Positions 1-58,100 of a stretch of 64,000 bases of DNA are shown one piece after another (position 1 is the first letter of the stretch; each line of letters opens with the position of its first letter). The notes below the pieces were generated by a model. That model worked only from the letters and a program-made list of their open reading frames with translations, had not been told where the DNA came from and made no database searches. Origin of the DNA: a virus; the IMG/VR virus record IMGVR_UViG_3300046001_006061, positions 2,928 to 66,927 of that record; one strand, given 5' to 3'. The position numbers and the translations under genes were made by a program.

Positions 1-29
1 TAGTGTATTGTAGTTTATCATAAACTACT

Positions 30-37
30 TATATTTG
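30..37 (+). promoter_or_regulatory. Bacteroidota -7 promoter element TATATTTG, 4 nt before ATG at 42
   Basis: Matches the TAnnTTTG consensus; followed by CATC-ATG. Confidence 0.7.
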
Positions 38-41
38 CATC

Positions 42-215
42 ATGGAACTAAAAAAATCATTACCAAAAAGAACCAACCTTTTTTCATGGCACTCTTATTT
101 TGCTGCCGACTTATCAAGTAAGGCTTGGAAGAAAATGAAAGACATGGGCTGTACTTCGCAAAGTCAATTTGTTGTTATGGCTGTTAAAAAATTTATTGAT
201 ACTGATGGAAAATAA
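42..215 (+). CDS. small 57-aa putative ribbon-helix-helix DNA-binding protein (not in ORF track)
   Basis: Manual translation MELKKSLPKR...GCTSQSQFVVMAVKKFIDTDGK; RHH-like C-terminal helix; promoter directly upstream. Confidence 0.55.
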   Translation: MELKKSLPKRTNLFSWHSYFAADLSSKAWKKMKDMGCTSQSQFVVMAVKKFIDTDGK

Positions 216-13568: not shown

Positions 13569-14379
13569 ATGAATAACATAAAAAATACAATATCGTTTCA
13601 ATTGATTAATGAAGAGGCAAGGGAGCTAAGTTGGAAAATACAAAATACTATTTATGTAATAAAAAAAGGTGATAGTTTATTTAATTGCCTAAGTATTGAA
13701 GATGGTGAAATTTTAGCTATATGGAAGCAAGGGAGTAGTCAGCAAATAGAGCAAAACACATTTAAAAAATAAAATTATGAAAAATCAAAAACAGCATTTT
13801 GAAAGTATGGCAAATAATTACCTTAATGACAATATTTCAGATTTTCGCACCGATTTAAAGAAACTAAACAGAAGCGACTTGTTGAGATTCGTTTTACATT
13901 GTGAGCTGTATTGGAATGACTTATTAAACATTTACGAAATAGAAAAACTGTTTAATAGCTAACAAACCACACAAACCAATTTTAAACCATTTAAGTAAAT
14001 TAGCTATTTTAGTAAATTTATAAAAATAATATTCGCACATCAATTAATCAAATAAAAAACACAAAAATTATGAAAGCAGTAAAATTTTTAGCACCAAACC
14101 AATGTTATTTTTTTCAAGATAACAAAATAGTATTTCAAAGCTACGAAACTATTATTTGCACTATTGAAAACTACGAAAATGGAAACGAACCGATAATAAA
14201 AATAACCGATTCGCAGCCACAAAGTAAAACCACAGCAAAATATTTAAATCAATTTTTGCAATTACACACAAGCTTTAAAAGCTATAAAGATATAAAATAG
14301 TGTTAAGGTTTCAAGTCCTTTAAATTGTGAGAACAGCCTTAAAACGGCTGTAAACAAACAACACAAAATAAAAATAATT

Positions 14380-19050: not shown

Positions 19051-19060
19051 TAGGAGAAAA

Positions 19061-19145
19061 TAACGGGCGGACGGTTTGGGCAGGCTGCAAACCTGACCAA
19101 CTTTCCACCCTAACCAACATCGCAGCTTGCTTAAACCGTATGTTA
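19061..19145 (-). repeat. attC-like site 1
   Basis: TAAC GGGCGG ACGGTTTGGGCAGGCTGC...GCAGCTTGCTTAAACCGT AT GTTA. Confidence 0.75.
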
Positions 19146-19204
19146 GAAGCAGTTAATTAAACCTTGTGCGTGGGGTTCACGCAAGTAAATTAGAAAATAA
19201 AATT

Positions 19205-19531
19205 ATGACATTTATTCATCAGCCAACAGAATTTGAAAAACAAAAAAATGATAAAGATTTTATAGAAAGATTGAAATCATTTTGTAAAAACCAATTAGAA
19301 GAAAAACCAAAAAAAATGAGTAATAAAGATAGAATTGATTATATCTCATTCCTTCATAAGCAAAATTTGAATGGAAGAGAAGATGAGGATACGCTTTTTG
19401 AAGCTGGTATAGAAGCTGGCATAACAGAAACAGAAGAGTTTATGTTAGAATTTATTGTTAGTTTAAATCTTCCATTTACTGAAGATGAAATTACGGAAAT
19501 GTTTAATAAATTTAAAGCAAATGCAGAATAA
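19205..19531 (+). CDS. cassette 1 ORF a, hypothetical
   Basis: ATG 19205 after the leader shared with cassette 8. Confidence 0.65.
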   Translation: MTFIHQPTEFEKQKNDKDFIERLKSFCKNQLEEKPKKMSNKDRIDYISFLHKQNLNGREDEDTLFEAGIEAGITETEEFMLEFIVSLNLPFTEDEITEMFNKFKANAE

Positions 19532-19802
19532 AACATACAGTGGGATACTAATTAAATATGTTAGAGATAACAATATGATTATTTGGAAAATAGAAGAATC
19601 ACTAGCTGCTTTAAATATTTATGTCGATTGTAAAGATGAAGATAAACTAACCGATTTAGATAATGAACGAAAAGTATATTTCAAACTCAAAAAAGTATTT
19701 ATGGGTAGAGAATATGGCGAAGATATGAATATGAATTTAGCATATAACCTAAGTTTTGAAATAAATGTCCAAGCGCAAAAGGCGGAAGCAAGCAAGGTTT
19801 AA
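19521..19802 (+). CDS. cassette 1 ORF b, hypothetical
   Basis: Overlaps the ORF a stop; ends in the shared 3' flank. Confidence 0.6.
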   Translation: MQNKTYSGILIKYVRDNNMIIWKIEESLAALNIYVDCKDEDKLTDLDNERKVYFKLKKVFMGREYGEDMNMNLAYNLSFEINVQAQKAEASKV

Positions 19803-19814
19803 TTTATTGCTTTC

Positions 19815-19941
19815 TAACGGTATCGGGGCTTGTAGCAGTAGGGGATTTTGAAAAACTACTGCTCAATTAACCACCACAGCCCAATAGAAGTAAAAGGCTC
19901 AAAACTTGCACTTCTGCCCCTATTGCTACAGACCCTTGTTA
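19815..19941 (-). repeat. attC-like site 2
   Basis: TAAC GGTATC GGGGCTTGTAGCAGTAGGGG...CCCCTATTGCTACAGACCCTT GTTA; near-copy of site 11. Confidence 0.8.
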
Positions 19942-19988
19942 GCGGTAGGTTTTTTCAAATCAAGGGTTAATTTTAAAAGTTACATAAA

Positions 19989-20234
19989 ATGTTCAAAAAG
20001 AAAATAACATATTTTGTACTATATTTTTTAGAAGGAAATTCAAATAATAAATATAGTGTTTATATGACATCTAATGTAGAAAGTACAAACTCCTCCGAAT
20101 TTAATTTGCATTTTAATAATCAATGCAAATTAAATTACGAAGAAAATACGGGTTTAAAAACTGATGAAGTGGTTATCGAAAGCATTCAAATGATTTCTAT
20201 TCAAGTTTCTTTGTTTGGGTGGCGTATTTTTTAA
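19989..20234 (+). CDS. cassette 2 ORF, hypothetical
   Basis: 81 aa between sites 2 and 3. Confidence 0.6.
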   Translation: MFKKKITYFVLYFLEGNSNNKYSVYMTSNVESTNSSEFNLHFNNQCKLNYEENTGLKTDEVVIESIQMISIQVSLFGWRIF

Positions 20235-20243
20235 ACTTACCGC

Positions 20244-20370
20244 TAACGTTTTCGGGCTTTGTGTCCGTTGGCGACTTAAACTACAAATGTTAAATTGAAA
20301 AACAAATATTGATATGAGTACAAAAATTAAATCGAAGAACGAAACCGCCAATGGCACAAAACCCGTGTTA
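20244..20370 (-). repeat. attC-like site 3
   Basis: TAAC GTTTT CGGGCTTTGTGTCCGTTGGCG...CGCCAATGGCACAAAACCCG T GTTA. Confidence 0.8.
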
Positions 20371-20607
20371 GGCGAAGTTATTGATAGCAAGGTTAATCAA
20401 TTGCTGTCTTTAAGTGATGAATTTATATTCCCTGCTTACTATTCACATTCAGGTAAAACAATGTGGAAGATTTCAAATGTTTATACAAAATACGGTTCTG
20501 AAACATTGGTTTTGTGTGGCGTTGATGAAGGTATTGAAACAGCAATTGATTTGGCAATAGAACACATTTCAAAAGCTAAAGATAAGTTCTATGGTGTCGG
20601 TGTATAA
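20314..20607 (+). CDS. cassette 3 ORF, hypothetical (starts inside site 3, stops on the TAA of the next TAAC)
   Basis: ORF track plus site coordinates. Confidence 0.65.
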   Translation: MSTKIKSKNETANGTKPVLGEVIDSKVNQLLSLSDEFIFPAYYSHSGKTMWKISNVYTKYGSETLVLCGVDEGIETAIDLAIEHISKAKDKFYGVGV

Positions 20608-20730
20608 CGTTTTGCGGCTTTATGCAGTAGCGGACTTAAACCAAAAAATTTGATATGGAAAACGAAATTATAAATACAGATAAAAGTTCATTAGAACCAC
20701 GAAATCCGCTATTGCTTAAAGCTGATGTTA
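20605..20730 (-). repeat. attC-like site 4
   Basis: TAAC GTTTTG CGGCTTTATGCAGTAGCGGA...TCCGCTATTGCTTAAAGCTG AT GTTA. Confidence 0.8.
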
Positions 20731-20966
20731 TAAGCCGTTTTGGTGAATGTAAGTACAGTTGTCAATTAACACACGAGCCAAGTTGGTTTCATACAATATT
20801 GATTAAAGACTTTAGCATTTATATCGAGGAATGGATGGATGATGAAGATAATGAAATTTGTGCAACAGTTTTTACAGGCGAGAAAAAAAATGCTAATGGC
20901 TTTGCAAATACCAACTTGGCTTTATTGTTGAATGATATTGAGGAGTTCGTTAAAAATGGCTTATAA
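20655..20966 (+). CDS. cassette 4 ORF, hypothetical (starts inside site 4)
   Basis: 103 aa; stop is the TAA of TAAC at 20964. Confidence 0.65.
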   Translation: MENEIINTDKSSLEPRNPLLLKADVISRFGECKYSCQLTHEPSWFHTILIKDFSIYIEEWMDDEDNEICATVFTGEKKNANGFANTNLALLLNDIEEFVKNGL

Positions 20967-21057
20967 CGTTTGGTGGCTTTGTGTCTGTTTGCCCCTTGCG
21001 CAAAGTTTCAAGTTTACCACAAATGTTGATGGGGCAAATAGCACAAAACCGCTGTTA
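20964..21057 (-). repeat. attC-like site 5
   Basis: TAAC GTTT...GGCTTTGTGTCTGTTTGCCCC...GGGGCAAATAGCACAAAACCGCT GTTA; near-copy of site 7. Confidence 0.8.
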
Positions 21058-21095
21058 TGCGTAGTAGCGGATTATTAACGATAAATTTAATTAAA

Positions 21096-21563
21096 ATGAT
21101 GAAACATAAACAAAAACAACCTTACGGATGCGGTTTATATGCCGTTGCAAACGCCTGTAATTTAGACAACTTTATTACAGATGAAAGACTTGAAAAAAGT
21201 AAAACAGGAAATGTAATAGGGCAACTTTCAAAGTGGATGCAAGAAGATGGACACCCATTTTACATTGATACGCTTTACTATAACCACGTTGGAAAAAAGT
21301 TACCTAAAACGGCATTGGACTATAAACCAAGTGGAGAAGGAATACATTTTTTGCCTGTGCTTATAAATGTAAGATTTTCTGATGAAGGGAAAAATCATTT
21401 AGTAGGTGGGAAAATTGACAAAGAAGGCAAATTATATTTATACGATAGCCTTAAAGAAGAAATGATTGAAACAACGATGAGGCAGGTAAACAGAATGTAT
21501 CATCACGTTTACGGGTTGTTTTTGTTTATGGGTGTTGATAATGGAGAATATGTCTTTATATAG
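21096..21563 (+). CDS. cassette 5 ORF, papain-like cysteine peptidase
   Basis: Q..PYGCGLYAVAN nucleophile helix, NHLVG, LYLYDSL (Cys-His-Asp). Confidence 0.6.
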   Translation: MMKHKQKQPYGCGLYAVANACNLDNFITDERLEKSKTGNVIGQLSKWMQEDGHPFYIDTLYYNHVGKKLPKTALDYKPSGEGIHFLPVLINVRFSDEGKNHLVGGKIDKEGKLYLYDSLKEEMIETTMRQVNRMYHHVYGLFLFMGVDNGEYVFI

Positions 21564-21584
21564 CAGTAACGTAGCTATTACGCA

Positions 21585-21672
21585 TAACGTTTTGCGTATA
21601 TGAGAAGTGGCACTTGCAGAATGTTGAAAGTTAGCACGAATGTTTCTGTGCCATTTCTTATATACGCTGTTA
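21585..21672 (-). repeat. attC-like site 6
   Basis: TAAC GTTTT GCGTATATGAGAAGTGGCAC...GTGCCATTTCTTATATACGC T GTTA; near-copy of site 10. Confidence 0.85.
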
Positions 21673-21708
21673 TAAGCAGCCTTTTTATTAACTTAAATTA
21701 AAAACAAA

Positions 21709-21981
21709 ATGAGAAACTTTAAAACAAAAATTGAAGGACACGAAGAAGAGTTTGACTTTGAATGTTACGAAAATACAGAATCAATAGAAATTGGAGATAA
21801 ATATATTTTCTTTTTTGGTGGTATTGCAGACGTTCAAGTATGCGACTCTGAAAATGTAAAAGAAGAAGTAAACAAACACAATAGACCTTATCAGTACGAT
21901 AAAATTGATTTAACACACAATTTTTGGACTAAGTGTTTTAAAATTAAAGAAACAAATTTTGACCTTAGTACGGTTTTATAA
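21709..21981 (+). CDS. cassette 6 ORF, hypothetical
   Basis: 90 aa. Confidence 0.65.
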   Translation: MRNFKTKIEGHEEEFDFECYENTESIEIGDKYIFFFGGIADVQVCDSENVKEEVNKHNRPYQYDKIDLTHNFWTKCFKIKETNFDLSTVL

Positions 21982-21990
21982 GGTTGCTTA

Positions 21991-22084
21991 TAACGTTTTG
22001 CGGCTTTGTGTCTGTTTGCCCCTTGCACAAAAGTTTCAAGTTACCACAAATGTTGATGGGGCAAATAGCACAAAACCGCTGTTA
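21991..22084 (-). repeat. attC-like site 7
   Basis: Same family as site 5. Confidence 0.85.
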
Positions 22085-22136
22085 TATGCCGTTGTGGGTT
22101 GTCAAAAGGAATTTTAAAACTTAATAATTAAAAAAT

Positions 22137-22742
22137 ATGTATAAATGTAATATTTGTCCTGCTGAATTTAAAACAGAAAAGGGATTATCAAACCACAAAT
22201 GTAGGTGGATATGTAAAATATGTGGAACTAAACTTACCACACCAAAAGGTTATGATAGGCACTTGCAAAATCATAGTAACTCTGAAACAAGAAAAAAAGA
22301 ACAACAGATAAAGCAGGTTGAAGCACAAAAACAAAAAGATGAAGAATTTGCAATAAAATATCAAAAATTGATTGATATGGGTTTATTTAATCCATTACAT
22401 AATTCTGGCGATAGTGTTATTGTTTCTACATATATTGTAACAAAGCCAACTCACGAACAAAGGTTTAATAGAATGGTAAGAGTTCGGTATGAAGAGGAAA
22501 GAAGGTATGATGTATTTGATTGGATAATAGACAAAGCAATAGAACCAACAATTAACGATTTGTATAGGATTAATAATTGTATTGAGTTGAATAAACAATA
22601 TCCAATTCAATATTTAACAAAGAATTTTAAAGTAATTTCTGAATCCAATATTTTTCAAGATAGAACCAAAGCTATTGATGAGGCAACTAATAAAGGTAAA
22701 CAATATAAAGAGGCTTGTGACTTTGCTTCTATGTGTCGCTAA
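22137..22742 (+). CDS. cassette 7 ORF, tandem C2H2-type zinc-finger protein
   Basis: YKCNICPAEFKTEKGLSNH and CKICGTKLTTPKGYDRHLQNH. Confidence 0.7.
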   Translation: MYKCNICPAEFKTEKGLSNHKCRWICKICGTKLTTPKGYDRHLQNHSNSETRKKEQQIKQVEAQKQKDEEFAIKYQKLIDMGLFNPLHNSGDSVIVSTYIVTKPTHEQRFNRMVRVRYEEERRYDVFDWIIDKAIEPTINDLYRINNCIELNKQYPIQYLTKNFKVISESNIFQDRTKAIDEATNKGKQYKEACDFASMCR

Positions 22743-22752
22743 CAATGGCATA

Positions 22753-22840
22753 TAACGGGCGGACGCTTGCATTGCAGGTTGCAAAAACAATAATTATTCC
22801 TTACAGTAACTTGTCAGCAACTTGCTGCAAGCGTATGTTA
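22753..22840 (-). repeat. attC-like site 8
   Basis: TAAC GGGCGG ACGCTTGCA..GCAGGTTGC...GCAACTTGCTGCAAGCGT AT GTTA; family of site 1. Confidence 0.75.
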
Positions 22841-22899
22841 GAAGCAGTAAATTAAACCTTGTGCGTGGGGTTCACGCAAGCAAATTAGAAAATAAAATT

Positions 22900-23307
22900 A
22901 TGAAATCAACAGAAGAAGAAAAGAAAAAAGAAAAAATAGTTCAATCCGCTTACGGTAATCTTTATGAAAAATATAAAATAAACATAAATAAATACAGCGG
23001 ATTCACAGATACAAAAGAGGAAAAATTAGGATTCTCGCCATTGTCTGATGAAATTGAATATTTGGATTTTACTTGTAGTAATTTATGGAGACCAATTTCG
23101 TTAAAAGGAATAGAAAATAATAATGGGTGGATACGTATTGATAATAAACAATCAATTGAAAAAATAAATTATGTTGGATGGGCGTTCATACGTGTTTGTC
23201 GTGAAAATATTGAAGATATTTATTGTGAATATGTAGCAAATTCAATAGGCTATTTCTATGCTACTCATTACCAACCAATAATAAAACCTAAATCACCTCA
23301 TTTTTAG
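22900..23307 (+). CDS. cassette 8 ORF, phage hypothetical with DUF551-like C-terminus
   Basis: NNNGWIRI...ATHYQPIIKP. Confidence 0.6.
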   Translation: MKSTEEEKKKEKIVQSAYGNLYEKYKININKYSGFTDTKEEKLGFSPLSDEIEYLDFTCSNLWRPISLKGIENNNGWIRIDNKQSIEKINYVGWAFIRVCRENIEDIYCEYVANSIGYFYATHYQPIIKPKSPHF

Positions 23308-23348
23308 CGCAAAAGGCGGAAGCAAGCAAGGTTTAATTTATTGCTTTC

Positions 23349-23426
23349 TAACGTTTTCGGGCTTGGCGAAGTGGCTTTTGTGCGTTGGCTTGTGTGTCGG
23401 GAAGCCATTTTGCCAAACCCGTGTTA
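23349..23426 (-). repeat. attC-like site 9
   Basis: TAAC GTTTT CGGGCTTGGCGAAGTGGCT...AGCCATTTTGCCAAACCCG T GTTA; arms shared with site 12. Confidence 0.85.
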
Positions 23427-23486
23427 TACGCTGGCACGGGTAATTTAGTAGGAACTTAATTTGAAACACAAATAAAAATCAAAGCA

Positions 23487-23792
23487 ATGGCAACAGCAAT
23501 TTATGAAATACCGAACTCCGTAAAGGAAATGTTTGAACAAGGCGAAAATAGTTATCGCATAATTGACTATTCAATACAGGAAATGGACAATATCCAAAGT
23601 ATGCAACATTTCCTTGACTGCATAGGTGCAACAAGCGATAATATTGAAACAGACGATGGAACGCAAGTGGTAATTATTCATCCTGACTTTGACCACAAAC
23701 TTGTAATTGATAGTGGTGGGTTGGGCGATTTTTATTCTCACGGTTATGACGTAACTCTCTATTCGGAGACGGTCAGTAGTGCTTGCGTATAA
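23487..23792 (+). CDS. cassette 9 ORF, acidic hypothetical protein
   Basis: 101 aa; stop is the TAA of TAAC at 23790. Confidence 0.65.
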   Translation: MATAIYEIPNSVKEMFEQGENSYRIIDYSIQEMDNIQSMQHFLDCIGATSDNIETDDGTQVVIIHPDFDHKLVIDSGGLGDFYSHGYDVTLYSETVSSACV

Positions 23793-23877
23793 CGTTTTGC
23801 GTATATGAGAAGTGGCACTTGTAGAATGTTGAAATTTAGCACAAATGTTTCTGTGCCATTTCTTATATACGCTGTTA
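23790..23877 (-). repeat. attC-like site 10
   Basis: Near-copy of site 6. Confidence 0.85.
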
Positions 23878-23946
23878 CCTGCTGGTGCGGTTAATTTAGT
23901 AGAATTTTGATTTGAAAACGAATAGAAAATTTAAAAAGTTTTAGAG

Positions 23947-24192
23947 ATGGAAACACAAAAAATGTATGGAGTAGAATATAAAACAGATAGCAGTTCTACT
24001 TATGAAATATTTGAAAATTACGATGATGCGTTAGCTTTTGCTAATAGTAATGAAAATGCTATGTTTTTATTTACAGCAGACTTTAATAAGGACAGAGTTT
24101 ATTTAGATAGTGAAACTTGGAATTACGATGATTTTACCGACACTTTTATTAACCAAGAAATAATTGAAACTTATGAAATATATGGGAAGTAA
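23947..24192 (+). CDS. cassette 10 ORF a, acidic hypothetical protein
   Basis: 81 aa, D/E-rich. Confidence 0.6.
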   Translation: METQKMYGVEYKTDSSSTYEIFENYDDALAFANSNENAMFLFTADFNKDRVYLDSETWNYDDFTDTFINQEIIETYEIYGK

Positions 24193-24940
24193 GGCGAGAT
24201 TTAGTAAAGAGATTTTGCCGATAATATTAAAAGACAGAACAGCCGACCAATGGTATGTTGAGCCATTTGCAGGTGGAATGAACGCAATTTGTGATGTAGA
24301 TGGCAATAGACTTGCTAATGATAAAAACTACCACTTAATTGAAATGTGGAAAGGATTAACAAATGGCGTTAAATACCCAACAGACATACCAAAAGATTTG
24401 TATGACCTTGCAAGAGATGTTTATAATGGTAGAGAAACAAGGTTTGAACACAAAATGAATATGGCTGATGATATGGTGGGTTGGATTGGTTGGATGGGTT
24501 CTGCAAATGGTAGATTTTTTGATGGTGGATATTCTGGTAAATCAAATACCAAAATTGGAACGGTAAGAAATTACATTAAGGAAGCAATAAGTAATATTGA
24601 AAAGCAATTACCAAAGATGGTAGGTGTTAAATTTGAGAACAAAGATTATACTGAATTGCTATTACCCAATAACAGTATTATTTATTGCGACATTCCATAT
24701 CAAGGAACAAAACAATATTCAACATCAAAAGATTTTAACCATTCAAATTTTTGGAAATGGTGCAGAGAAAAGGCAAAGCAAGGACATACAATTTTTGTAA
24801 GTGAATACGAAGCACCTGCCGACTTTGAATGTGTTTGGCAAAAAGAGGCTAAATCTTCTTTATCGGCAAATGGTGTAATAGGTGGTAATAAGGTGAGTGT
24901 GGAAAAACTTTTTAAATTTTCTCCCACAAATGCTAATTAG
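24173..24940 (+). CDS. cassette 10 ORF b, Dam/D12-class DNA adenine methyltransferase
   Basis: KYMGSK, YVEPFAGG, AND.N, IYCDIPY, FVSEY. Confidence 0.9.
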   Translation: MKYMGSKARFSKEILPIILKDRTADQWYVEPFAGGMNAICDVDGNRLANDKNYHLIEMWKGLTNGVKYPTDIPKDLYDLARDVYNGRETRFEHKMNMADDMVGWIGWMGSANGRFFDGGYSGKSNTKIGTVRNYIKEAISNIEKQLPKMVGVKFENKDYTELLLPNNSIIYCDIPYQGTKQYSTSKDFNHSNFWKWCREKAKQGHTIFVSEYEAPADFECVWQKEAKSSLSANGVIGGNKVSVEKLFKFSPTNAN

Positions 24941-24964
24941 AAGCACGAATGTAGCACTTGCAGG

Positions 24965-25091
24965 TAACGGTCTGGGGCTTGTAGCAGAAGGGGAATTTGA
25001 AAAACTACTGCGCAATTAACCACCACAGCCTAATAGAAGTAATAAGGCTCAAAACTTCCACTTCTGCCCCTATTGCTACAAACCCTTGTTA
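24965..25091 (-). repeat. attC-like site 11
   Basis: Near-copy of site 2. Confidence 0.8.
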
Positions 25092-25139
25092 GCGGTTCGG
25101 GCTTGTTTTCACAAGGGTATAAATTTTAAATAAATAAAA

Positions 25140-25376
25140 ATGTCAGAGAAAAAAGTATCAGTTACCATTAAGTGTAAACAAGTAATGCACTTTGCTCAAA
25201 GTGTTGAAATGTCCGAAAGTGATTATGAGAAAATCAAAGATTTGGATTTTGAAGATGTCCACGAAATAAGAGAAAGAGAGCAGTATTCAGTTATTGAAGG
25301 ATATCTGAATTTTATGGATATTCTTGAAAGCGATGATGAATTTTTAGATGTCCAAATTACCAAAGATGAAGATTAG
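25140..25376 (+). CDS. cassette 11 ORF, acidic hypothetical protein
   Basis: 78 aa. Confidence 0.6.
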   Translation: MSEKKVSVTIKCKQVMHFAQSVEMSESDYEKIKDLDFEDVHEIREREQYSVIEGYLNFMDILESDDEFLDVQITKDED

Positions 25377-25400
25377 TAGGGTGTTTTTTAGCCTGACCGC

Positions 25401-25520
25401 TAACGTTTTCGGGCTTGGCGAAGTGGCTGAACGCGAAGCTAAATAGAATTACAAAACTTTAAAATTAAAAACGAATGATTGATAGAATTACTGAACAGCC
25501 ATTTTGCCAAACCCGTGTTA
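25401..25520 (-). repeat. attC-like site 12
   Basis: Arms as in site 9, longer loop containing the ATG of the next ORF. Confidence 0.85.
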
Positions 25521-26248
25521 GTGGCAGTACTTTTGTGAACGCAGACTGCTTTGATGTTTTTCCTTTTATTGAGGATAAATCAATTGATGCGATTATTTGC
25601 GATTTGCCTTATGGAACTACTGCTTGTAAGTGGGATAGTATCCTGCCATTAGACAAACTTTGGAATGAATACAAGCGTGTTTTAAAGCCAAACGGTGTTA
25701 TTTTACTTACTGCTTCGCAACCATTTACAACTGTTTTGATTGGAAATGATTTGAAAATGTTTAAGTATAATTTAGTTTGGGATAAAGTAGCTGTTACAAA
25801 TCCGATGTTGGCTAAAAAACAACCTATGAGATGCCACGAAGATGTATTGATTTTTTACGATAAGCAACCAACTTACAACCCACAAATGAGAGTAGGCGTA
25901 AAATGGAGTAGAGCAGGAAAAAAACAACATACAACAGATACTTTAGGGCAAAGCACGTTGTTTAATAATGGAAGCGATGAAAGTGAAATGAAATACCCTA
26001 AAAGTATTATCACATTTTCAAATGCTGACAAAACAAAAAACGAACATCCAACTCAAAAACCGATTGACTTAATGGAATGGTTGATTAAAACATATACAAA
26101 CGAAGGCGATATGGTATTAGACAATACAATGGGTTCAGGAACAACAAACTTGGCTTGTATTAAATTAAATCGCAAATCAATTGGAATAGAAAAGGAAAAA
26201 CAATATTACGATGTTGCTGTTCGGAGGGCTTCGGAGTATTGCCACTAA
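25475..26248 (+). CDS. cassette 12 ORF, N4/N6 (beta-class) DNA methyltransferase
   Basis: SIDAIICDLPYG, HPTQKP, VLDNTMGSGTT, GIEK. Confidence 0.92.
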   Translation: MIDRITEQPFCQTRVSGSTFVNADCFDVFPFIEDKSIDAIICDLPYGTTACKWDSILPLDKLWNEYKRVLKPNGVILLTASQPFTTVLIGNDLKMFKYNLVWDKVAVTNPMLAKKQPMRCHEDVLIFYDKQPTYNPQMRVGVKWSRAGKKQHTTDTLGQSTLFNNGSDESEMKYPKSIITFSNADKTKNEHPTQKPIDLMEWLIKTYTNEGDMVLDNTMGSGTTNLACIKLNRKSIGIEKEKQYYDVAVRRASEYCH

Positions 26249-26269
26249 CTATGTGATTGGCGCAACAAC

Positions 26270-50752: not shown

Positions 50753-51436
50753 ATGCAAAACGATGAAAAATATGTGGCTTATAAAAGAGTTTCTACCAAA
50801 GAACAAGGTCAAAGCGGTCTTGGTTTAGAAGCGCAAGAGAAGGCTGTGAAGCAAATAACTGATAGTGGTATTGTGATTAAGTCTTTTACCGAAATAGAAT
50901 CAGGCAAAAAGAACAATAGACCTATGCTTTTGGAAGCAATAAATATGTGTAAGCTACATAACGCTACTTTAGTTGTGGCTAAACTTGATAGGCTTTCGAG
51001 AAATGTTTACTTTATTAGTTCGCTAATGGAAAGCAAAGTTAAGTTTATATGTGCGGATTTTAAAGAGGTTGATAATTTCACTTTGCATATATTTGCTTCT
51101 CTCGCAGAACGTGAGCGCAAAATGATTTCCGAGAGAACCGTTAATGGCTTGAACTCTATAAAAAACAGACTTAAAAAAGACAAGGTTTACGTTACCAAAA
51201 AAGGGAATACAATTACTTCTCTTGGAAACCCTCTTATGCAATGTAAAGAATACGCTAAAAAACAAATGAGTATCGTTGCTTCTAATAGGGTTTACAATAA
51301 ACGCAATCCTGTTGGAGTAGAACTAATCAAAGCCTATGCTAAAAATGGAATGGCTGCAAAAGATATTAAGGTGAAGCTGAACGAAAACAGCATTAATTAT
51401 ACGCTTAAAACTATTTACCAACACATAAAAGCATGA
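50753..51436 (+). CDS. small serine recombinase (resolvase/invertase family)
   Basis: VAYKRVSTKEQ, E.ESG...RP.L..A, LVVAKLDRLSR, AE.ER..I.ERT. Confidence 0.92.
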   Translation: MQNDEKYVAYKRVSTKEQGQSGLGLEAQEKAVKQITDSGIVIKSFTEIESGKKNNRPMLLEAINMCKLHNATLVVAKLDRLSRNVYFISSLMESKVKFICADFKEVDNFTLHIFASLAERERKMISERTVNGLNSIKNRLKKDKVYVTKKGNTITSLGNPLMQCKEYAKKQMSIVASNRVYNKRNPVGVELIKAYAKNGMAAKDIKVKLNENSINYTLKTIYQHIKA

Positions 51437-52388: not shown

Positions 52389-52640
52389 CAAAAACGCTTC
52401 CATTGGTCTGTGGCGAGGTTATATACCATTCGCTAATTACGATTACCAAATTATTTCTTTTAAATTTAAAGCATGGATGTAACATTTTCCTTTTAAAGCC
52501 AAAACCGATTCCTATTGAGTTCATTATACGATAGACATTTTGAGTAAGAGTGTTACTTCTTTAGGGGTAGGGGTAACATTTTTACTTACCTACCTCAAAC
52601 CTTTAAATTATTACCGATATACTTGGATTATAAATGTTTT

Positions 52641-52673
52641 AAAAAAGCCCTAAATAGTTAAATCTAGGGCTTT
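52641..52673 (-). terminator. terminator
   Basis: AAAAAAGCCCTA...TAGGGCTTT. Confidence 0.7.
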
Positions 52674-52684
52674 CTGTGTGAGTG

Positions 52685-53842
52685 TTATAAAGAAAACTCT
52701 ATATTTTTGAGTTTAGTTTTAGCGTTAAAAACATCAATGAACATTATTTTTTCAGTTTCATTGTAAGCGTTTGCTTCAACTTTTATCTTGTCTTTAAGGT
52801 TATCGAAAGTCGCCTTTCCTTTATGTTTTTCTAAGCGTTCAATACATTTGTCAACTGCTTGAGTAATTTCCTCTACAATATCTGTATTGGTTTCAATTAC
52901 AGCTTCTTCTTCAACGTGTCCACTTTCTTGTGCGCCTAATTCAATGTCTATTTTATCGGACACTTCTTCGCTTGTAAGTTTCCCCTGTGTTGCTGCTAAA
53001 AGATAATCGAACACCTTAGTATTGGTTTTAAAGAAGTAAATTACTTCTGTTTCGTCTTTACCAATTATTTGTTCTCCAAAATAGTAGTTACCGTTTTTAA
53101 AAGTGATAATTGGATTACTGCCTTTTTTAAGTTCTGTAATTGCTTTCCTAAACACAATTAGATATTGGCTTTCGTTTTTCTTTGAAACAAAGTCAACAAA
53201 TCTTTTTGGTGAATGATTGATAAATTCTTTGGCTTTATTGTAGTTCACCATTGGTTCGTTTAGCTGTGGTTTAATGGCTAAGTTTAGTCCGAAACAAATA
53301 TCTACAAGTTCTGTAAAGTCTTTTGATTCTATGCAAGTATCGTAGATTTCGTCTAATAATAAAATTGCTTTTGTTTGCTCACGATTGGTATTAAACGCTT
53401 TTTCTTCAATTGCTGTTTCATCAACCAATACAAAGTTAATTCCTCTTGTAAGTCCTACGCTAAAGTTTATGTTTAACTGCTCTTTTGTTACTGAATGATA
53501 CTCTGCAACTAATGGGTGTAATTTAACAAACTTAACTAAGTTCTGCATTTTTACAGCTTGGTTTCTTTCCATTTCATTATCCATTTTGGCAATGTCGTGG
53601 GCTTCGGGAACGTGAATTAAACCCCAAGAGAATTTATCCACTTTGTCTAGTAAAGGGATTTGCAAAAATGTTGAAAGTTTAAAGTTCCAAATTTCGCCTA
53701 CTTTTCGAGTATGTTCTACTCCTTTTTTAATTTCTCCTGTTGTAAGGATAGTGTAATACTGTCCATCTTTTCTTTGGCAACTTCCATCTAAAATTGCACC
53801 TTTACGGTTTCTCTGTGTGTAATACAGTCGGTATGTTCTCAT
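52685..53842 (-). CDS. hypothetical protein, probable virion/assembly protein (likely start MRTYRLY)
   Basis: About 385 aa; TATATTTG promoter at 53873-53880. Confidence 0.6.
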   Translation of the reverse strand: MRTYRLYYTQRNRKGAILDGSCQRKDGQYYTILTTGEIKKGVEHTRKVGEIWNFKLSTFLQIPLLDKVDKFSWGLIHVPEAHDIAKMDNEMERNQAVKMQNLVKFVKLHPLVAEYHSVTKEQLNINFSVGLTRGINFVLVDETAIEEKAFNTNREQTKAILLLDEIYDTCIESKDFTELVDICFGLNLAIKPQLNEPMVNYNKAKEFINHSPKRFVDFVSKKNESQYLIVFRKAITELKKGSNPIITFKNGNYYFGEQIIGKDETEVIYFFKTNTKVFDYLLAATQGKLTSEEVSDKIDIELGAQESGHVEEEAVIETNTDIVEEITQAVDKCIERLEKHKGKATFDNLKDKIKVEANAYNETEKIMFIDVFNAKTKLKNIEFSL

Positions 53843-53957
53843 TGTTTTTTTATGTCGTTTTTCTTGACGTTTCAAATATATAAATAAAAAATGCTATATG
53901 CAATTTTTTTCAAAAACTTCACATAGCTTCTGTTAGCTGCCACCTTTAGGACAGAGT

Positions 53958-54563
53958 ATGAGAGACAATAAAGGACAATTAGAATTATTAGGTTTCTTAA
54001 AAGACAACTACCATAACGGAGATGTTAATATTGCGCCTATTCTGAAAAAAATAAGCGAATTACATAATTTTGACTACAACGACATAAAAACGTATTGTCT
54101 AAATCCATTAAGAGATAAGGGTTATATGAAAGACTGTAATTATAGCGACTTGGGTGGTTTAAATAAAAGTATTCGGGCTACTTATGACAATACAAGAATA
54201 CTTACTTGTTTGACGGAAAAGGGATATAATTATTTATTTAATTTAGACAATCATGAATTATCTAAACAGCTATCACTATCCACGTTAGAAACGAACAAGG
54301 CTATAAAGACTGCAAGTATAATTCAATGGGTTGCTGCGGTTTCCACTGTTTTAATTATTTCCGCTAATTGTATAATTGATTTTTTAAATTACGACTTTAA
54401 CAAAGCAACACATCATACATCATATATGCAACAGCAGAAAGACTCGACAGACAAAGAAGCTCAAAAAAGACTACTCGACACACTGCATATTTATCGCCAT
54501 CAAATTGACAGTCTTGTGTTATTGGGTAAGACAAAAAAGCAAGTATTTTCCAAACCAAAATAG
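53958..54563 (+). CDS. cassette ORF, winged-helix-like N-terminus plus TM helix
   Basis: L..KGY...LTEKGY; hydrophobic IIQWVAAVSTVLIISANCII. Confidence 0.6.
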   Translation: MRDNKGQLELLGFLKDNYHNGDVNIAPILKKISELHNFDYNDIKTYCLNPLRDKGYMKDCNYSDLGGLNKSIRATYDNTRILTCLTEKGYNYLFNLDNHELSKQLSLSTLETNKAIKTASIIQWVAAVSTVLIISANCIIDFLNYDFNKATHHTSYMQQQKDSTDKEAQKRLLDTLHIYRHQIDSLVLLGKTKKQVFSKPK

Positions 54564-54624
54564 TGTGTGCCGACAACGTAAAACGACACTCATTAACTAA
54601 ACTCACACTTAAACAAAAAACAAT

Positions 54625-54831
54625 ATGACAACAAAATTTAAAATTGGCGACACTGTTAAACTAAAATCAGGCAGCCCAGTAATGACAATTACCAATACAA
54701 AGGTTTGGAAAAGAGTTGAAAAGAAACTTGATTGGGACGAAACTTATGCTGAATGCACTTGGTTTGACATCGACAACAAATCACATACAAAAGAGTTTCC
54801 AAAAGACGCTTTAGAAAAAATTAACGACTAA
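54625..54831 (+). CDS. cassette ORF, YodC/DUF2158-family protein
   Basis: FKIGDTVKLKSGSPVMTI...CTWFD...F...AL. Confidence 0.85.
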   Translation: MTTKFKIGDTVKLKSGSPVMTITNTKVWKRVEKKLDWDETYAECTWFDIDNKSHTKEFPKDALEKIND

Positions 54832-54964
54832 GGTAATATACCCTAATTCCTAAGAAATAAACGTGCAATTCTTTTTTGTCTGAATCTCTAATCACTCTAA
54901 CAATGCTTGACAAAGTACCGTATTTAAATTTTGACATTATGTTTTTATACATAAGGCGAGCAGC

Positions 54965-55082
54965 TAACAGCACCCTTGCGAAAATTTGCTACCTCTCGGA
55001 ACTACTGCTCCTATTGGCTTTTTTCTGCGTTGACAACTTCGTGTTCCAATACCGCAAACTATCGCAAGGCTGCGAAACGTTA
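54965..55082 (+). repeat. attC-like site 13
   Basis: TAAC A GCACCCTTGCGAAAATTTGC...GCAAACTATCGCAAGGCTGC GAAAC GTTA; reverse-complement architecture of array sites. Confidence 0.8.
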
Positions 55083-55136
55083 TTGCAAATGTAATATAAA
55101 ATACCATACAAACAAGTAAAAAGAATGATATTTTCG

Positions 55137-58100
55137 TTATTTTGACAATTTAATAATTTCGTCTTTTTCTGTGTCGTCTTTAATAATTCCCGCTTCTTTC
55201 CATTGTTTTAAAGTGGTAGTTTTGTTTACTATTGAGCGAAGCATTTTAGCCAAAAATATTTGTTTATCGTATTTATCTTTAGGCAATTTATCTCGCAATG
55301 CTTTAGTTTCTTCGCTAACATTATTAGCAATATCATCGGCTGCTCTTTTGATTTCAGTTTCTTTACCTTCGTCTTTTTTCAACCAATCAAATTTATCTTC
55401 TAAATACTTATCTTCATTTTTGCTGCCTTTAAATATTTTTCTAAACGCTGCTTTTTTAGTTTCGTTATGTCTTTCGCTTAAATCTTTCGCAACTTGCTCT
55501 TGGCTTATTTTTGTAATAGGACTGTTCTTTTCGTGGTTATAGTAGTCAACCAATAATCCGTTAAATATTCTTGCTGCTTCTGCTGAAACATCATAGGTTT
55601 CTTCATCGGTCATTGGGCGTGAAGTTCCGTCACCATTATCTACTAAATAAAATTTATCACTATCTTTTTTGATGTCGCTAATTCCTAAGTTATTATTTGC
55701 AGCTTTTAAAACCCAAACGTCAATTGGGTCTTTATTTACCTTACTTCCAAATAAATTCATTGCGCCACTAGCACTACTTGTATAAAGTTCTCCCGTATCA
55801 TAAGTCCTTCCTCTATAATCTAGGTTCGGTTTATTTAATAACCAACCACCAACTCCCGCTTGTTTAATTATATTTTCTTTTAAACCAATTGCTTTTTTAG
55901 CTTCGGGTTCTGCTACTTGTCCCGCTTGGCGAACAAAACTTGTAAAAGGTAATATAATTCTAGTAGTTAGTTCGGCTGCTTTTTTCTCAAAATAAGTAGC
56001 TAATTTACCCGTTTGGGCTGTGCTTGAAGCTGCGGTTGCAATATCAGAAAGCCCTTTTGTGAATGATGAACTTATAATCTGTGATAATACCATACCCATA
56101 TATTGAGTATTCGTAATTTCTTTATCAGCGTATCTTTTTAAATCCTTTGCAATTGACCTAATTTTCATTTCAGTTGCTAATGTTCCAAAGAAATCGAATG
56201 AAATATCACGCCCACCTATTCTTATAGTGTTTTGAGGGCGAACAGTTTCTATAACTTTATTTCTGTTAAAGTTCTTGTCGCCTTGTCCATAAATTGCTTT
56301 TTCATCGTCTGCACCATCATCGTCTGCTAGTGATTGCAAAAGTGCCATTAACACCATTCCGACTGCTACTCTATAAATAACTTCACCGCTTTTCGCTGAA
56401 AGTTCTCTTGCTTTTGCGGTGTCTTTTTTGTTATTAGCATTTAAAGCTAGTCCTAGATAGGTTGCTGATTTTATTCCACCGTAAATCGGATTAAACTCTA
56501 ATCCTTTTTCAAGAATATTTGCTACACCATTTATAAAAGGCATTGTACTTGTAAATAATAGTTCCCCACTTACCTCAATACCATTAGCTATTTTGTTGGC
56601 TTGTTTTGAGTATGGTGTTCCTTTGGCATTTTTTCTAATCCTTGCTGCCATTAAAGGAAATACATCTTTTACATATTTAATTAAGTTGGCTACTAAAGGA
56701 AACACACCAGCATCAGATTGTTTATAAGTATATCTCGAAGCAAATTCAGTAGCAATATTTAAAACCGCTATATCTCTTTGTTGTTGAGTAATCTCATTTA
56801 TTCTTCTGTTTAATTTCAGTTTTCCGCTTTTTGAAGTATATTCAATATTTGATTTAGTAAACTCTTGTATAGCTTGTTCTCTTGCTGCTTGCATAGTAGA
56901 ATCTTGCGCTAATTTATAAACTAATTTATTGAACGCTCTTTTATTGTTCTCTATGTCTAATCCTTTTTCTTGAAATATTTTAGATGCTTCGGCTGTTGCT
57001 TCTGTAATATCTAGGTTATACATAATCTCATAAGCCACTTTCGCAGCTTCTTTAGAACTCATGTTAGGGTTGTTTCTCATAACTACTCTCTTTGTGAAAG
57101 TGTATGATTTCATTTCTTGCAAAATAGTATGGTTCACACTATCAGTTGCACCTAAAACTCTTTGAACGTATTTTTCGTTTTTCTTTAAAGCGTTTATTGG
57201 GTTTAGGTTAAATGTTACGCCTTTTATAGTTACATGTAAGTCGGGTGTCCAATAGTTGTGATATTTTTGAAACTCTAAAAACCTTACGCTTGGTGTTCCT
57301 TCTTTCTGCCCCGTTTGTTCAGCAAAAGCACTTCCATTATCAACACTTCCGTTTACCAAACTTTCTAAGGCTAATGTTCCACCAATTCTATTTGCTTGCT
57401 TGATTACCTTTAAAATATTTAATTCAACATTACCTTTTAATAAATCCATGTTCATATTGGAATCTATTAATTGGTGTCCAATCATAAATCCCGTATCAAA
57501 AAAGCCCGTTAAGTTTTTGCCCGTTGTAATGAAACCCGAAAGTAATCTTGCTCTCCAACGCTCAAACATTTCTTTCATGGCGAAAGTACCGCCTATATGT
57601 TCAAAGTATGCTTGTAGTTCTTCTTCTAAACCCGCACTAACAAAACCTATTCCCGCATTGTCAATACGTTGTAACAAGTCTTCAATAATCTTTTGGTCGT
57701 TATCTGTAAAGGCTATAATACCTAAATCACGAGCCATTTTTTCTAAAATCTTATCGTTTGTTAAACCACCCGCATTATAAAGTTCAATTAGTGAACGTAT
57801 TTTATCTTTCCTTGCTTTGTTTGAAAACTGTGTAGCTGCTTTGTATCTATCATTTGCTTTTACTACTGCGTTTATTTTGGCTTCTTTTTTAGCTTGAACA
57901 AGTTCGTTAAATCTTGTTTCTAAAGCAGCTAGTAAGTCGTCAATTTCGCTAGGGTCTAAACCCAACTCATTACTTATCGCTTCTTTAACTTTTTCAATTG
58001 CTTCTTTAGGAGTGTTTTTGCTCAATGCAATTTTTCCTAAATCAGCTACTATATTTCCTTTACTATCTTGTGTTGCGTAACCCAATTTTACTAAGGCTTC

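What the first reader, a model, noticed from the sequence alone, without database searches (positions are those of the whole stretch)
53932..55082. Solo cassette in canonical orientation inside the structural region, probably captured from a host array
Seen: GTTAGCTGCCACCTT - two + strand genes (TM protein, YodC/DUF2158) - AAGGCGAGCAGCTAAC - 118-bp hairpin - GTTA. It interrupts a minus-strand region and has the same G.T/bulge signature as cassette 11. A degenerate hairpin (GCTATATGCAA...TTCACATAGC, 53893-53927) precedes it. Established: integron integrases can insert cassettes at secondary GTT sites. Inference: the system exchanges cassettes between host and phage and can seed new arrays.
Basis: partly seen in the sequence, partly recalled or inferred. 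Interest (0 to 1): 0.75.

Follow-up and report, generated by a model that had tools for sequence, protein, structure and literature searches.

The report
Lone host-style gene cassette in phage
A lake-water crAss-like phage carries, apart from its main row of swappable genes, one extra two-gene unit that is built like the cassettes stored in Bacteroidota chromosomes and is missing from its closest relatives, which hints that phage and host trade genes through one shared recombination-site system.

Summary
The described sequences are there. The 118-nt hairpin (54965-55082) belongs to the same structured family as the 12 sites of the phage's main array: a covariance model built from those 12 hits it at 34.1 bits, E 3.7e-5, on the minus strand only. 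The unit's ends are complementary (GTTAGCTGC / GCAGCTAAC), as in the array units.

The same site family fills Bacteroidota chromosomes beside Xer/IntI-like tyrosine recombinases. There genes precede their site, as in this solo unit. In phage arrays, including this phage's own, the polarity is the reverse (130 of 132 decided segments). So "canonical orientation" holds.

Two close relatives lack 53882-55136 (1,255 bp). The unit is therefore accessory. However, the gap extends 50 and 57 nt beyond the two G|TTA cores, so insertion at a bare secondary GTT site is not shown.

No donor was found. The 201-aa protein matched only itself, and no recombinase lies in the contig, which is about half a genome.

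Verdict: a real, single, host-polarity cassette of an integron-like system. Capture from a host is plausible but unproven. This scan has noted the system before on other DNA (231 notes matched my word search), including a similar docked host-type cassette.

The parts
53882..55136 (.). Accessory module of 1,255 bp, absent from two close relatives, which have 'TAC' (minus-strand reading) in its place
   Evidence: In blastn of L001/L002 against the window, homology jumps from 55137 to 53881. The junctions were read.
53882..53931 (-). Left flank: a short weak hairpin (53893-53927) followed on the minus strand by a T-run. It is a candidate docking site, a decayed site or a terminator.
   Evidence: ssDNA fold on the minus strand -6.3 kcal/mol, z -1.76. 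Model R1 gives 12.8 bits, E 1.4 at 53879-53941 (-). The sigma-70/terminator scan did not call it.
53932..53946 (+). Left cassette end GTTAGCTGCCACCTT; inferred crossover G|TTA between 53932 and 53933
   Evidence: It is the reverse complement of the 9 nt that end at 54968.
53958..54563 (+). ORF of 201 aa with no family. It has an N-terminal winged-helix-like fold (a lead only) and one hydrophobic helix.
   Evidence: no Pfam, PHROG or PADLOC family. (only itself found). (Atlas structure neighbours ArsR/PadR/MarR, TM 0.31-0.44 by query; feature neighbours are Bacteroidota hypothetical proteins, 0.92).
54625..54831 (+). ORF of 68 aa, DUF2158 (YodC-like) small protein
   Evidence: Pfam PF09926 E 9.8e-10; phrog_3261 E 1.9e-15.
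54953..54968 (+). Right cassette end AAGGCGAGCAGCTAAC (the R''-like box), complementary to the left end
   Evidence: (pair I1).
54959..55088 (-). attC-like recombination site S1 (hairpin from core to core 54965-55082). The folding strand is the minus strand.
   Evidence: cmsearch with R1: 34.1 bits, E 3.7e-5, minus strand only. Alignment to the array sites. ssDNA folds.
55079..55082 (+). GTTA core at the far side of S1; inferred crossover G|TTA between 55079 and 55080
   Evidence: The role of the core is inferred from the main array's borders in three phages.
55083..55136 (-). Right flank (tail) with a Bacteroidota-type -7 box, TAnnTTTG, at 55093-55086 on the minus strand. The box points through S1 and is antisense to the two genes.
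   Evidence: Regex scan. This flank is absent from the relatives.
19058..26252 (+). Context: the main array of 12 sites and 12 units, of opposite gene polarity. Its outer borders fall exactly at TAAC in three phages.

Best explanation
Bases 53933-55079 (1,147 bp) form one mobile gene cassette of the integron-like system of Bacteroidota and their phages. It consists of two + strand genes without a recognisable promoter, followed by the cassette's own attC-like site (S1). It is delimited by G|TTA cores.

If excised as a circle, its ends would rebuild a fully paired outer stem (GCAGCTAAC / GTTAGCTGC) around the hairpin.

Its polarity (gene first, then site) is that of chromosomal arrays beside a Xer/IntI-like tyrosine recombinase. 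It is not the hairpin-first polarity of phage arrays.

The cassette sits in a 1,255-bp accessory module between the stop codon of a 1,950-aa gene and the promoter of the next gene. I infer three things:
- A tyrosine recombinase supplied in trans (by the host, or by the unsequenced half of the phage) joined the folded site to a GTTA core next to the short hairpin at 53893-53927.
- The cargo is carried rather than driven by a cassette promoter.
- The cassette pool it came from is the host-type pool.

Shown: family membership, end complementarity, polarity, absence from relatives. Inferred: the enzyme, the single-strand mechanism, the place and direction of transfer.
For: - The model built from the 12 array sites has covariation in 8 of the 10 pairs of helix 2 and an invariant G.U pair. 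It hits S1 at 34.1 bits, E 3.7e-5.
- End complementarity is the rule in the array. Of 11 units with a preceding site, 8 match it over at least 9 contiguous nt. Two match over 7 nt plus a 1-nt indel. One shares only GTTA. The solo unit matches over 9 nt, then 4 more.
- In three phages the main array holds different cassettes, yet homology to the flanks stops exactly at TAAC on both sides. The core is therefore where exchange happens.
- A consensus pattern found 69 stretches in genome contigs, mostly Bacteroidota, and at least 120 viral contigs. R1 gave 178 hits at E<=1e-3 in the 69 bacterial loci and 9-25 hits per genome in 5 of 5 whole genomes.
- Tyrosine recombinases lie beside arrays in G004, G005 and G006. 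They score 203-215 bits on NF040815 and 191-198 bits on TIGR02249.
- Bacterial units read G|TTAxxx-gene-xxxTAAC-A-stem...stem-NAAAC-G|TTA, the same layout as the solo unit on its + strand.
- In three long chromosomal arrays, 56 of 63 ORFs lie opposite to the model strand.
- In 120 viral loci, 130 segments have the gene on the model strand, 2 the opposite, and 15 are ambiguous.
- Both relatives lack the module. A second sequencing run (X3) holds a contig identical over 53561-54004, which bridges the left junction.
- There is no TAnnTTTG box on the + strand upstream of 53958.
Against: - The indel against the relatives ends at 53881 and 55137, not at the cassette cores. No empty site joined at G|TTA was seen, in relatives or in the four runs laid (no joints).
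- Only two relatives could be read, and they are nearly the same phage. Gain here and loss there cannot be told apart.
- No recombinase was found: PF00589 gave no match in the contig or in either relative's record. tblastn with three array-side recombinases gave no hit better than E 0.93 in the window and the fetched parts of the relatives.
- No donor or homologue of the cargo was found.
- The one DUF2158 gene in five array-bearing genomes is not in an array.
- Polarity in 'genome contigs' loci is mixed: 42 same, 19 opposite, 4 ambiguous. On contigs of at least 100 kb it is 7 against 8. Host polarity is therefore a majority rule in long arrays, not an absolute one, and my ORF-based count is crude.
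- GC content of 54001-55000 is 0.330, the same as the rest of the phage, so there is no compositional sign of recent import.
- S1's arms are no closer to bacterial than to viral sites.
Confidence: 0.55

Rival explanations
1. Block import. The whole 1,255-bp module (short hairpin, cassette, S1, tail with promoter-like box) came from another phage or array by ordinary mosaic or illegitimate recombination at gene boundaries, in the way morons are gained. In this reading the cassette cores are relics of an earlier life in an array, and no site-specific event took place at this position.
For: The indel boundaries sit exactly after the stop codon of the 1,950-aa gene and just before the -7 box of the next gene. 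They are 57 and 50 nt outside the cores. The relative G001 has another two-site mini-array in a different variable region (L018:1653-1791 and 2636-2715), so such modules are scattered among these phages. No recombinase is present in the contig.
Against: No source of the block was found in viral, genome or metagenome collections. On the + strand the right indel boundary itself reads G|TTA (55136|55137), overlapping the stop codon, so a core-site event is not excluded there. The polarity is the rare one for phage arrays (2 of 132 decided segments), which argues against a phage-array source.
Confidence: 0.28
2. Ancestral module lost in the relatives. The intergenic module with its cassette is old in this lineage, and L001/L002 deleted it. 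Nothing was recently captured.
For: Only one independent comparison exists (L001 and L002 give the same junction). The cassette's GC content equals the phage's. A second run holds the same filled left junction.
Against: The relatives show a compact, functional-looking junction (stop codon, 3 nt, -7 box) with no remnant of the module. The cargo has no homologue in any relative.
Confidence: 0.12
3. Not a mobile unit. S1 is only a structured terminator or regulatory hairpin between convergent genes, and the complementary ends are chance.
For: S1 lies 49 nt after the stop of the minus-strand giant gene and between convergent transcription units. The real-sequence control for 9-mer complementarity gave 10 of 211.
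Against: S1 matches a model of recombination sites whose neighbours in the array show cassette-end complementarity and core-exact borders. The GC-rich 9-mer match appeared in only 83 of 20,000 shuffles. No T-run follows S1 on either strand.
Confidence: 0.05

Closest known systems
Integron gene cassettes and attC sites (class 1 integrons, Vibrio chromosomal integrons)
   Same: An imperfect palindrome is bounded by ...TAAC and GTTA... cores. The first bases of a cassette complement the box before its own site. Arrays lie beside a tyrosine recombinase in bacteria. The gene-then-site polarity of the solo unit is the classical one.
   Different: The array-side recombinases score below the curated cut-off of the integron-integrase model and match it in two stretches, so the IntI hallmark was not shown. 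The spacers are asymmetric (1 against 5 nt) with an invariant G.T pair, rather than the classical extrahelical bases. No integrase and no attI were identified in this phage. That classical attC uses the bottom strand is from the literature (abstracts listed), not tested here.
Clusters of attC sites lacking an integrase (CALIN) in virulent phages (Qi et al. 2023, PMC9892861; outline, section 3.4 and passages read)
   Same: These are phage-borne attC sites without an integrase, with methyltransferase cargo. One case is a phage of a Bacteroidota host (Polaribacter phage P12002L) with sites in divergent directions. The authors suggest illegitimate recombination at GTTRRRY-like motifs as the entry route.
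   Different: That paper reports 17 CALINs of at least two sites, found with the standard attC tools. Here there is a single good site at a second locus. The site family is shared with large Bacteroidota arrays, and the phage/host polarity contrast is not described in the parts I read. Its supplementary tables, which I could not see, may list more.
Cassette insertion at secondary sites by integron integrases (Recchia, Stokes and Hall 1994; seen only as an entry in the reference list of PMC9892861; its content is recalled)
   Same: A cassette with its site sits outside the main array, next to a GTT-containing core.
   Different: No empty site joined at GTT was found. The flanks are also absent from the relatives. 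The enzyme is unknown.
Phage morons
   Same: A small accessory block of the opposite strand lies between two conserved genes. It is absent from close relatives and has a hairpin plus T-run at one end.
   Different: The block is bounded internally by recombination cores and carries a site of a recombination-site family.
   Same: A two-gene cassette of chromosomal-array polarity sits in a phage, next to a hairpin of inverted sense.
   Different: It is in another genome and inside a phage cassette rather than between two large genes. I did not examine that locus.

Membership tests
Bacteroidota/phage integron-like cassette system (sites of model R1) | The site matches the structured model of the array sites | tested here: met
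   34.1 bits, E 3.7e-5, full length 1-131, minus strand. It aligns with the array consensus.
Bacteroidota/phage integron-like cassette system (sites of model R1) | The cassette's ends are complementary beyond the GTTA/TAAC cores | tested here: met
   GTTAGCTGC against GCAGCTAAC, then CCTT/AAGG. This is seen in 10 of 11 array units in some form.
Bacteroidota/phage integron-like cassette system (sites of model R1) | Gain or loss boundaries fall at the cores when relatives are compared | tested here: not met
   This is met for the main array. For the solo unit the indel ends at 53881/55137, which is 50 and 57 nt outside the cores.
Classical integron (IntI, attI, attC) | An integron integrase with its specific extra domain lies next to the cassettes | tested here: not met
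   PF00589 gave no match in the 66.9-kb record or in either relative's record. The record is about 51% complete by CheckV. In bacteria the array-side enzymes reach 191-198 bits on TIGR02249 (cut-off 265), in two stretches.
Classical integron (IntI, attI, attC) | attC with RYYYAAC and GTTRRRY cores and paired R and L boxes | tested here: inconclusive
   The AAC and GTT cores and two paired stems are present. AGCTAAC and the rebuilt GTTAGCT each depart from the consensus at one position. The consensus itself is recalled and agrees with the 5'-G|TTRRRY-3' quoted in PMC9892861.
Classical integron (IntI, attI, attC) | Recombination of the folded bottom strand by the integrase | not testable with these tools
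   Only strand-biased folding was measured.
CALIN (at least 2 attC sites without an integrase) | At least two attC sites in a cluster | tested here: not met
   There is one significant site. The second hairpin scores 12.8 bits, E 1.4. The threshold of two is from IntegronFinder 2.0 (PMC9024848, passage read).
Intrinsic terminator | A GC-rich hairpin followed by a T-run | tested here: not met
   No T-run follows S1 on either strand, and the scan calls nothing at S1 or S2. S2 has a T-run on the minus strand by eye, but its stem is weak.
Rfam families | A match at the gathering score | tested here: not met
   No family matched the sites.

The most novel reading that the evidence does not exclude
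Bacteroidota hosts and their phages keep two mirror-image cassette pools on one hairpin-site family. In hosts the gene precedes the site. In phages the site precedes the gene, which reads through it. This solo unit would then be a direct trace of a host-polarity cassette docking in a phage at a minimal landing site (a short hairpin plus GTTA), outside any array. That would mean the recombinase can plant host cargo almost anywhere in a phage genome. Phages would then ferry host cassettes that they do not themselves express.
Probability: 0.3. Interest if true: 0.8.

Novelty: new variant of a known kind. Interest (0 to 1): 0.55.

Why it matters
Integrons are known as bacterial gene-capture platforms. 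Phage-borne attC clusters have been reported only recently and in few genomes.

Here a lone cassette with chromosomal polarity sits in a crAss-like phage whose own array has the reverse polarity. If it arrived by site-specific recombination, it is physical evidence that host and phage cassette pools mix. It would also show that single sites can appear outside arrays, the first step towards a new array.

It also offers a small, well-defined substrate for testing the unknown recombinase: one site, one candidate landing site, and known flanks with relatives that lack the module.

Tried and rejected
Searches that found nothing useful:
- The predicted junction: the exact 19-mer across 53917-53935 in viral contigs gave 0 hits.
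- A 20-mer from an arm of S1 in viral contigs gave 8 loci. They share only 21-25 nt and have no model hit, so this was a dead end.
- Relatives of the 201-aa protein: none in viral contigs, and only itself among 5.8 billion proteins.
- Relatives of the DUF2158 protein: three distant or partial hits.
- GenBank phages: no match to 52600-56600, and none to P0004 by tblastn.
- More relatives of the flanking 385-aa gene: metagenome scans gave none. The viral scan with an alignment returned the same two records.
- Proteins P0003-P0006 (84-86% identical) show that further relatives exist, but their DNA could not be fetched.

Reads: no joint across the cassette was seen. Runs X4 and X5 hold short contigs that stop inside the flanks (at 53904, 53894 and 55103) and do not cover the cassette. 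Contigs without cover prove nothing, so I draw no conclusion. The 'letters between' entry at 54244/54630 rests on 18-nt matches and is spurious.

Readings I considered and set aside:
- I first read the minus-strand hit as contradicting 'canonical orientation'. Comparison with bacterial arrays reversed that view.
- The octamer CTATGTGA, shared by the far flanks of the array and the solo unit, is not conserved in the relatives' array flank (TCGTAGA), so I treat it as chance.
- The serine recombinase at 50753-51436 is conserved in the relatives and has no link to the sites. I rejected it as the enzyme, on inference only.
- PADLOC gave nothing for the cargo.
- The DUF2158 gene of G007 is not in an array.
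- Ranking sites by arm similarity did not separate bacterial from viral sites.
- The sigma-70/terminator scan was uninformative.

Supplementary tables of PMC9892861 were not seen and may list more phage sites.
Full report
**What is there.** The window is 64 kb of a 66.9-kb viral record that CheckV rates about 51% complete. It is AT-rich (about 32% GC). It is crAss-like, since the 1,313-aa ORF at 36375-40316 matches the Crassvirus muzzle protein at E 9e-38. Runs that hold it are lake-water metagenomes.

The finding's elements are all present:
- GTTAGCTGCCACCTT at 53932-53946.
- Two + strand ORFs: 53958-54563 (201 aa, no family) and 54625-54831 (DUF2158).
- AAGGCGAGCAGCTAAC at 54953-54968.
- A hairpin running from TAAC (54965) to GTTA (55082), 118 nt.
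- A weak hairpin at 53893-53927.

**The reference system in the same phage.** Twelve hairpins lie at 19058-25523 on the + strand. They share the form TAAC-G-(about 4 nt)-stem...stem-T-GTTA. On an alignment of the 12, my 15-pair structure is paired in 97.2% of cells. Eight of the 10 pairs of the inner helix show changes on both sides. The G.U pair next to the core is invariant. No shuffle of 500 reached the observed covariation score.

The bases before each site's TAAC complement the bases after the previous site's GTTA. Of 11 units, 8 match over at least 9 contiguous nt. Two match over 7 nt with a 1-nt indel. One shares only GTTA. The last unit, a methyltransferase gene, ends in GCCACTAAC, which complements the GTTAGTGGC after site 12. 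No hairpin follows it.

Two relatives carry different cassettes at the same place. Their homology to the window stops exactly at TAAC on both sides...GAGAAAATAAC| on the left and xxxTAAC|T..GATTGGCG on the right. The TAAC/GTTA core is therefore where exchange happens. In this phage each unit begins with its hairpin and ends in TAAC.

**The solo site belongs to the family, on the other strand.** I built a covariance model (R1) from the 12 array sites only and searched the whole window without filters. It returns the 12 training sites and one further significant hit: 54959-55088 on the minus strand, 34.1 bits, E 3.7e-5. The + strand gives nothing at E<=10.

As single-stranded DNA the minus strand folds at -21.9 kcal/mol (z -2.79). 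The plus strand folds at -13.5 (z -0.18). The solo unit's ends complement each other over 9 nt and then 4 more. That match appeared in 83 of 20,000 shuffles of the 3 kb upstream. A harsher control, using real 9-mers ending in TAAC elsewhere in this AT-rich window, gave 10 of 211.

So the two + strand genes lie on the strand opposite to the site's folding strand. This is the reverse of all 12 units of the main array.

**What 'canonical' means here.** A consensus pattern from the array sites found 69 stretches in one-genome-per-species bacterial contigs. Most are Flavobacteriales, Chitinophagales, Cytophagales and Sphingobacteriales, including two Pedobacter isolates.

R1 gave 178 hits at E<=1e-3 in the 69 bacterial loci. 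It gave 9 to 25 hits in each of five whole genomes, several in long co-oriented arrays. Tyrosine recombinase genes lie at the edge of arrays in G004, G005 and G006. Three of them score 203-215 bits on NCBIfam's 'site-specific tyrosine recombinase/integron integrase' model (cut-off 220). They score 191-198 bits, in two stretches, on the integron-integrase model (cut-off 265). They are Xer/IntI-like, and the integron hallmark was not shown.

Read on the gene strand, bacterial units are G|TTAxxx-gene-xxxTAAC-A-stem...stem-NAAAC-G|TTA. This is the layout of the solo unit on its + strand: GCAGCTAAC-A-stem...stem-GAAAC-GTTA.

Polarity counts:
- In three long chromosomal arrays, 56 of 63 ORFs lie opposite to the model strand.
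- In 120 viral loci, of 147 inter-site segments, 130 have the gene on the model strand, 2 the opposite, and 15 are ambiguous.
- The 69 'genome' loci are mixed: 42, 19 and 4. On contigs of at least 100 kb the split is 7 against 8.

Many of the genome loci are short MAG contigs that may be phage DNA, and my longest-ORF rule is crude. The contrast is therefore a strong tendency, not a law.

**Is it an insertion, and where are its edges?** Two IMG/VR records encode the neighbouring 385-aa protein at 98% identity. In both, homology runs from window 55137 (the last base of the giant gene's stop codon) straight to 53881, with three bases (TAC on the minus strand) between. The relatives therefore lack 53882-55136, which is 1,255 bp.

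The missing stretch comprises the cassette, S1, the 50-nt left flank with the weak hairpin and T-run, and the 57-nt right flank. The right flank carries a Bacteroidota-type TAnnTTTG box at 55093-55086 on the minus strand, just before S1. The meaning of that motif is recalled, not tested.

The unit is therefore accessory. On the + strand the right edge of the gap itself reads G|TTA (55136|55137), overlapping the stop codon. I note this without building on it.

The two relatives are almost the same phage at this locus, so gain and loss cannot be told apart. Other scans returned nothing new.

Contigs of a second run (X3) match 53561-54004 without a difference and so bridge the left junction. No joint across the cassette appeared in the four runs laid.

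**Origin and enzyme.** No donor was found. The 201-aa protein matched only itself among 5.8 billion proteins. The cargo and the site have no relative in the 212 loci fetched up to that call. The arms of S1 are no closer to bacterial than to viral sites. The cassette's GC content equals the phage's. The one DUF2158 gene in five array-bearing genomes is not in an array.

The Atlas gives a winged-helix-like N-terminal fold for the 201-aa protein and Bacteroidota hypothetical proteins as its feature neighbours. These are leads only.

No tyrosine recombinase was found. PF00589 gave no match in the contig or in either relative's record. tblastn with three array-side recombinases gave no hit better than E 0.93 in the window and the fetched parts of the relatives. 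The serine recombinase at 50753-51436 is a conserved neighbour with no visible link to the sites.

No TAnnTTTG box lies on the + strand upstream of 53958. The cargo may therefore be promoterless here, as integron cassettes usually are. The only nearby box would drive antisense RNA.

**Other solo sites in the group.** The relative G001 has a two-site mini-array in another variable region (L018:1653-1791 at 49.4 bits; 2636-2715 at 28.4 bits). It encloses a 246-aa ORF with complementary ends, GTTAGCAGTAGTGCC and GGCATTACTGCTAAC, in phage polarity. Small satellite loci of the system are thus a feature of these phages. The window's locus is the one with host polarity.

**Comparison with what is known.** Phage-borne attC clusters without an integrase have been published. 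One is in a Polaribacter phage with methyltransferase cargo and divergently oriented sites, and class 1 integrase can recombine such sites (PMC9892861; outline, section 3.4 and passages read). IntegronFinder 2.0 reported only In0 earlier, and one complete integron (Salinibacter), in Bacteroidetes (PMC9024848, passage read).

My four literature searches listed no paper describing this site family, its Xer-like recombinase or the polarity contrast. That is no proof of absence. Rfam has no family for the sites.

This scan has met the system often: 231 notes held all the words of my search, in at least 164 genomes. They include the hairpin-first polarity and one 'host-type cassette docked in a phage'. 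I saw those notes after my own tests, except the notes on this window.

**Verdict.** This is a genuine single cassette of an integron-like system, in chromosomal polarity, within an accessory module. Capture from a host by insertion at a secondary GTT site is a reasonable reading. It lacks its two decisive pieces, an empty site joined at the cores and a donor. Import of the whole block by ordinary phage mosaicism is the main rival.

Noticed in passing
window 14298-14366 (+): A type-P3 twister ribozyme match lies above Rfam's gathering score (55.1 bits against 39.9, E 3.1e-9). It sits in the gap between two early + strand ORFs.
   Followed up: no
window 19065 and 26252; L016, L017: In three related phages the main array holds unrelated cassettes, yet homology to the flanks ends exactly at TAAC on both sides. 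The relatives' contigs break inside their arrays.
   Followed up: yes
L213 (G004:C21), L214 (G006:C10), L215 (G007:C12); L209-L211: Large co-oriented arrays of the same site family lie in Bacteroidota chromosomes, several beside Xer/IntI-like tyrosine recombinases that score just under the curated cut-offs. IntegronFinder 2.0 reported almost no integrons in this phylum.
   Followed up: partly
120 viral loci (L089-L208) against the bacterial arrays: Gene polarity relative to the site is reversed between phage arrays (130 of 132 decided segments on the folding strand) and long chromosomal arrays (56 of 63 ORFs on the other strand).
   Followed up: partly
L018:1653-2715 (relative G001): A second, two-site mini-array lies in a variable region that differs among the three phages. 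It encloses a 246-aa ORF with no Pfam family.
   Followed up: partly
window 20314, 20655, 25475: Three array ORFs start inside the hairpin loop and read through the 3' arm and the core into the cassette.
   Followed up: no
L078 (contig labelled as a cyanobacterial MAG), L035, L047, L044: A few hits of the site pattern lie in contigs labelled as non-Bacteroidota MAGs. These could be mis-binned phage contigs or a wider host range.
   Followed up: no
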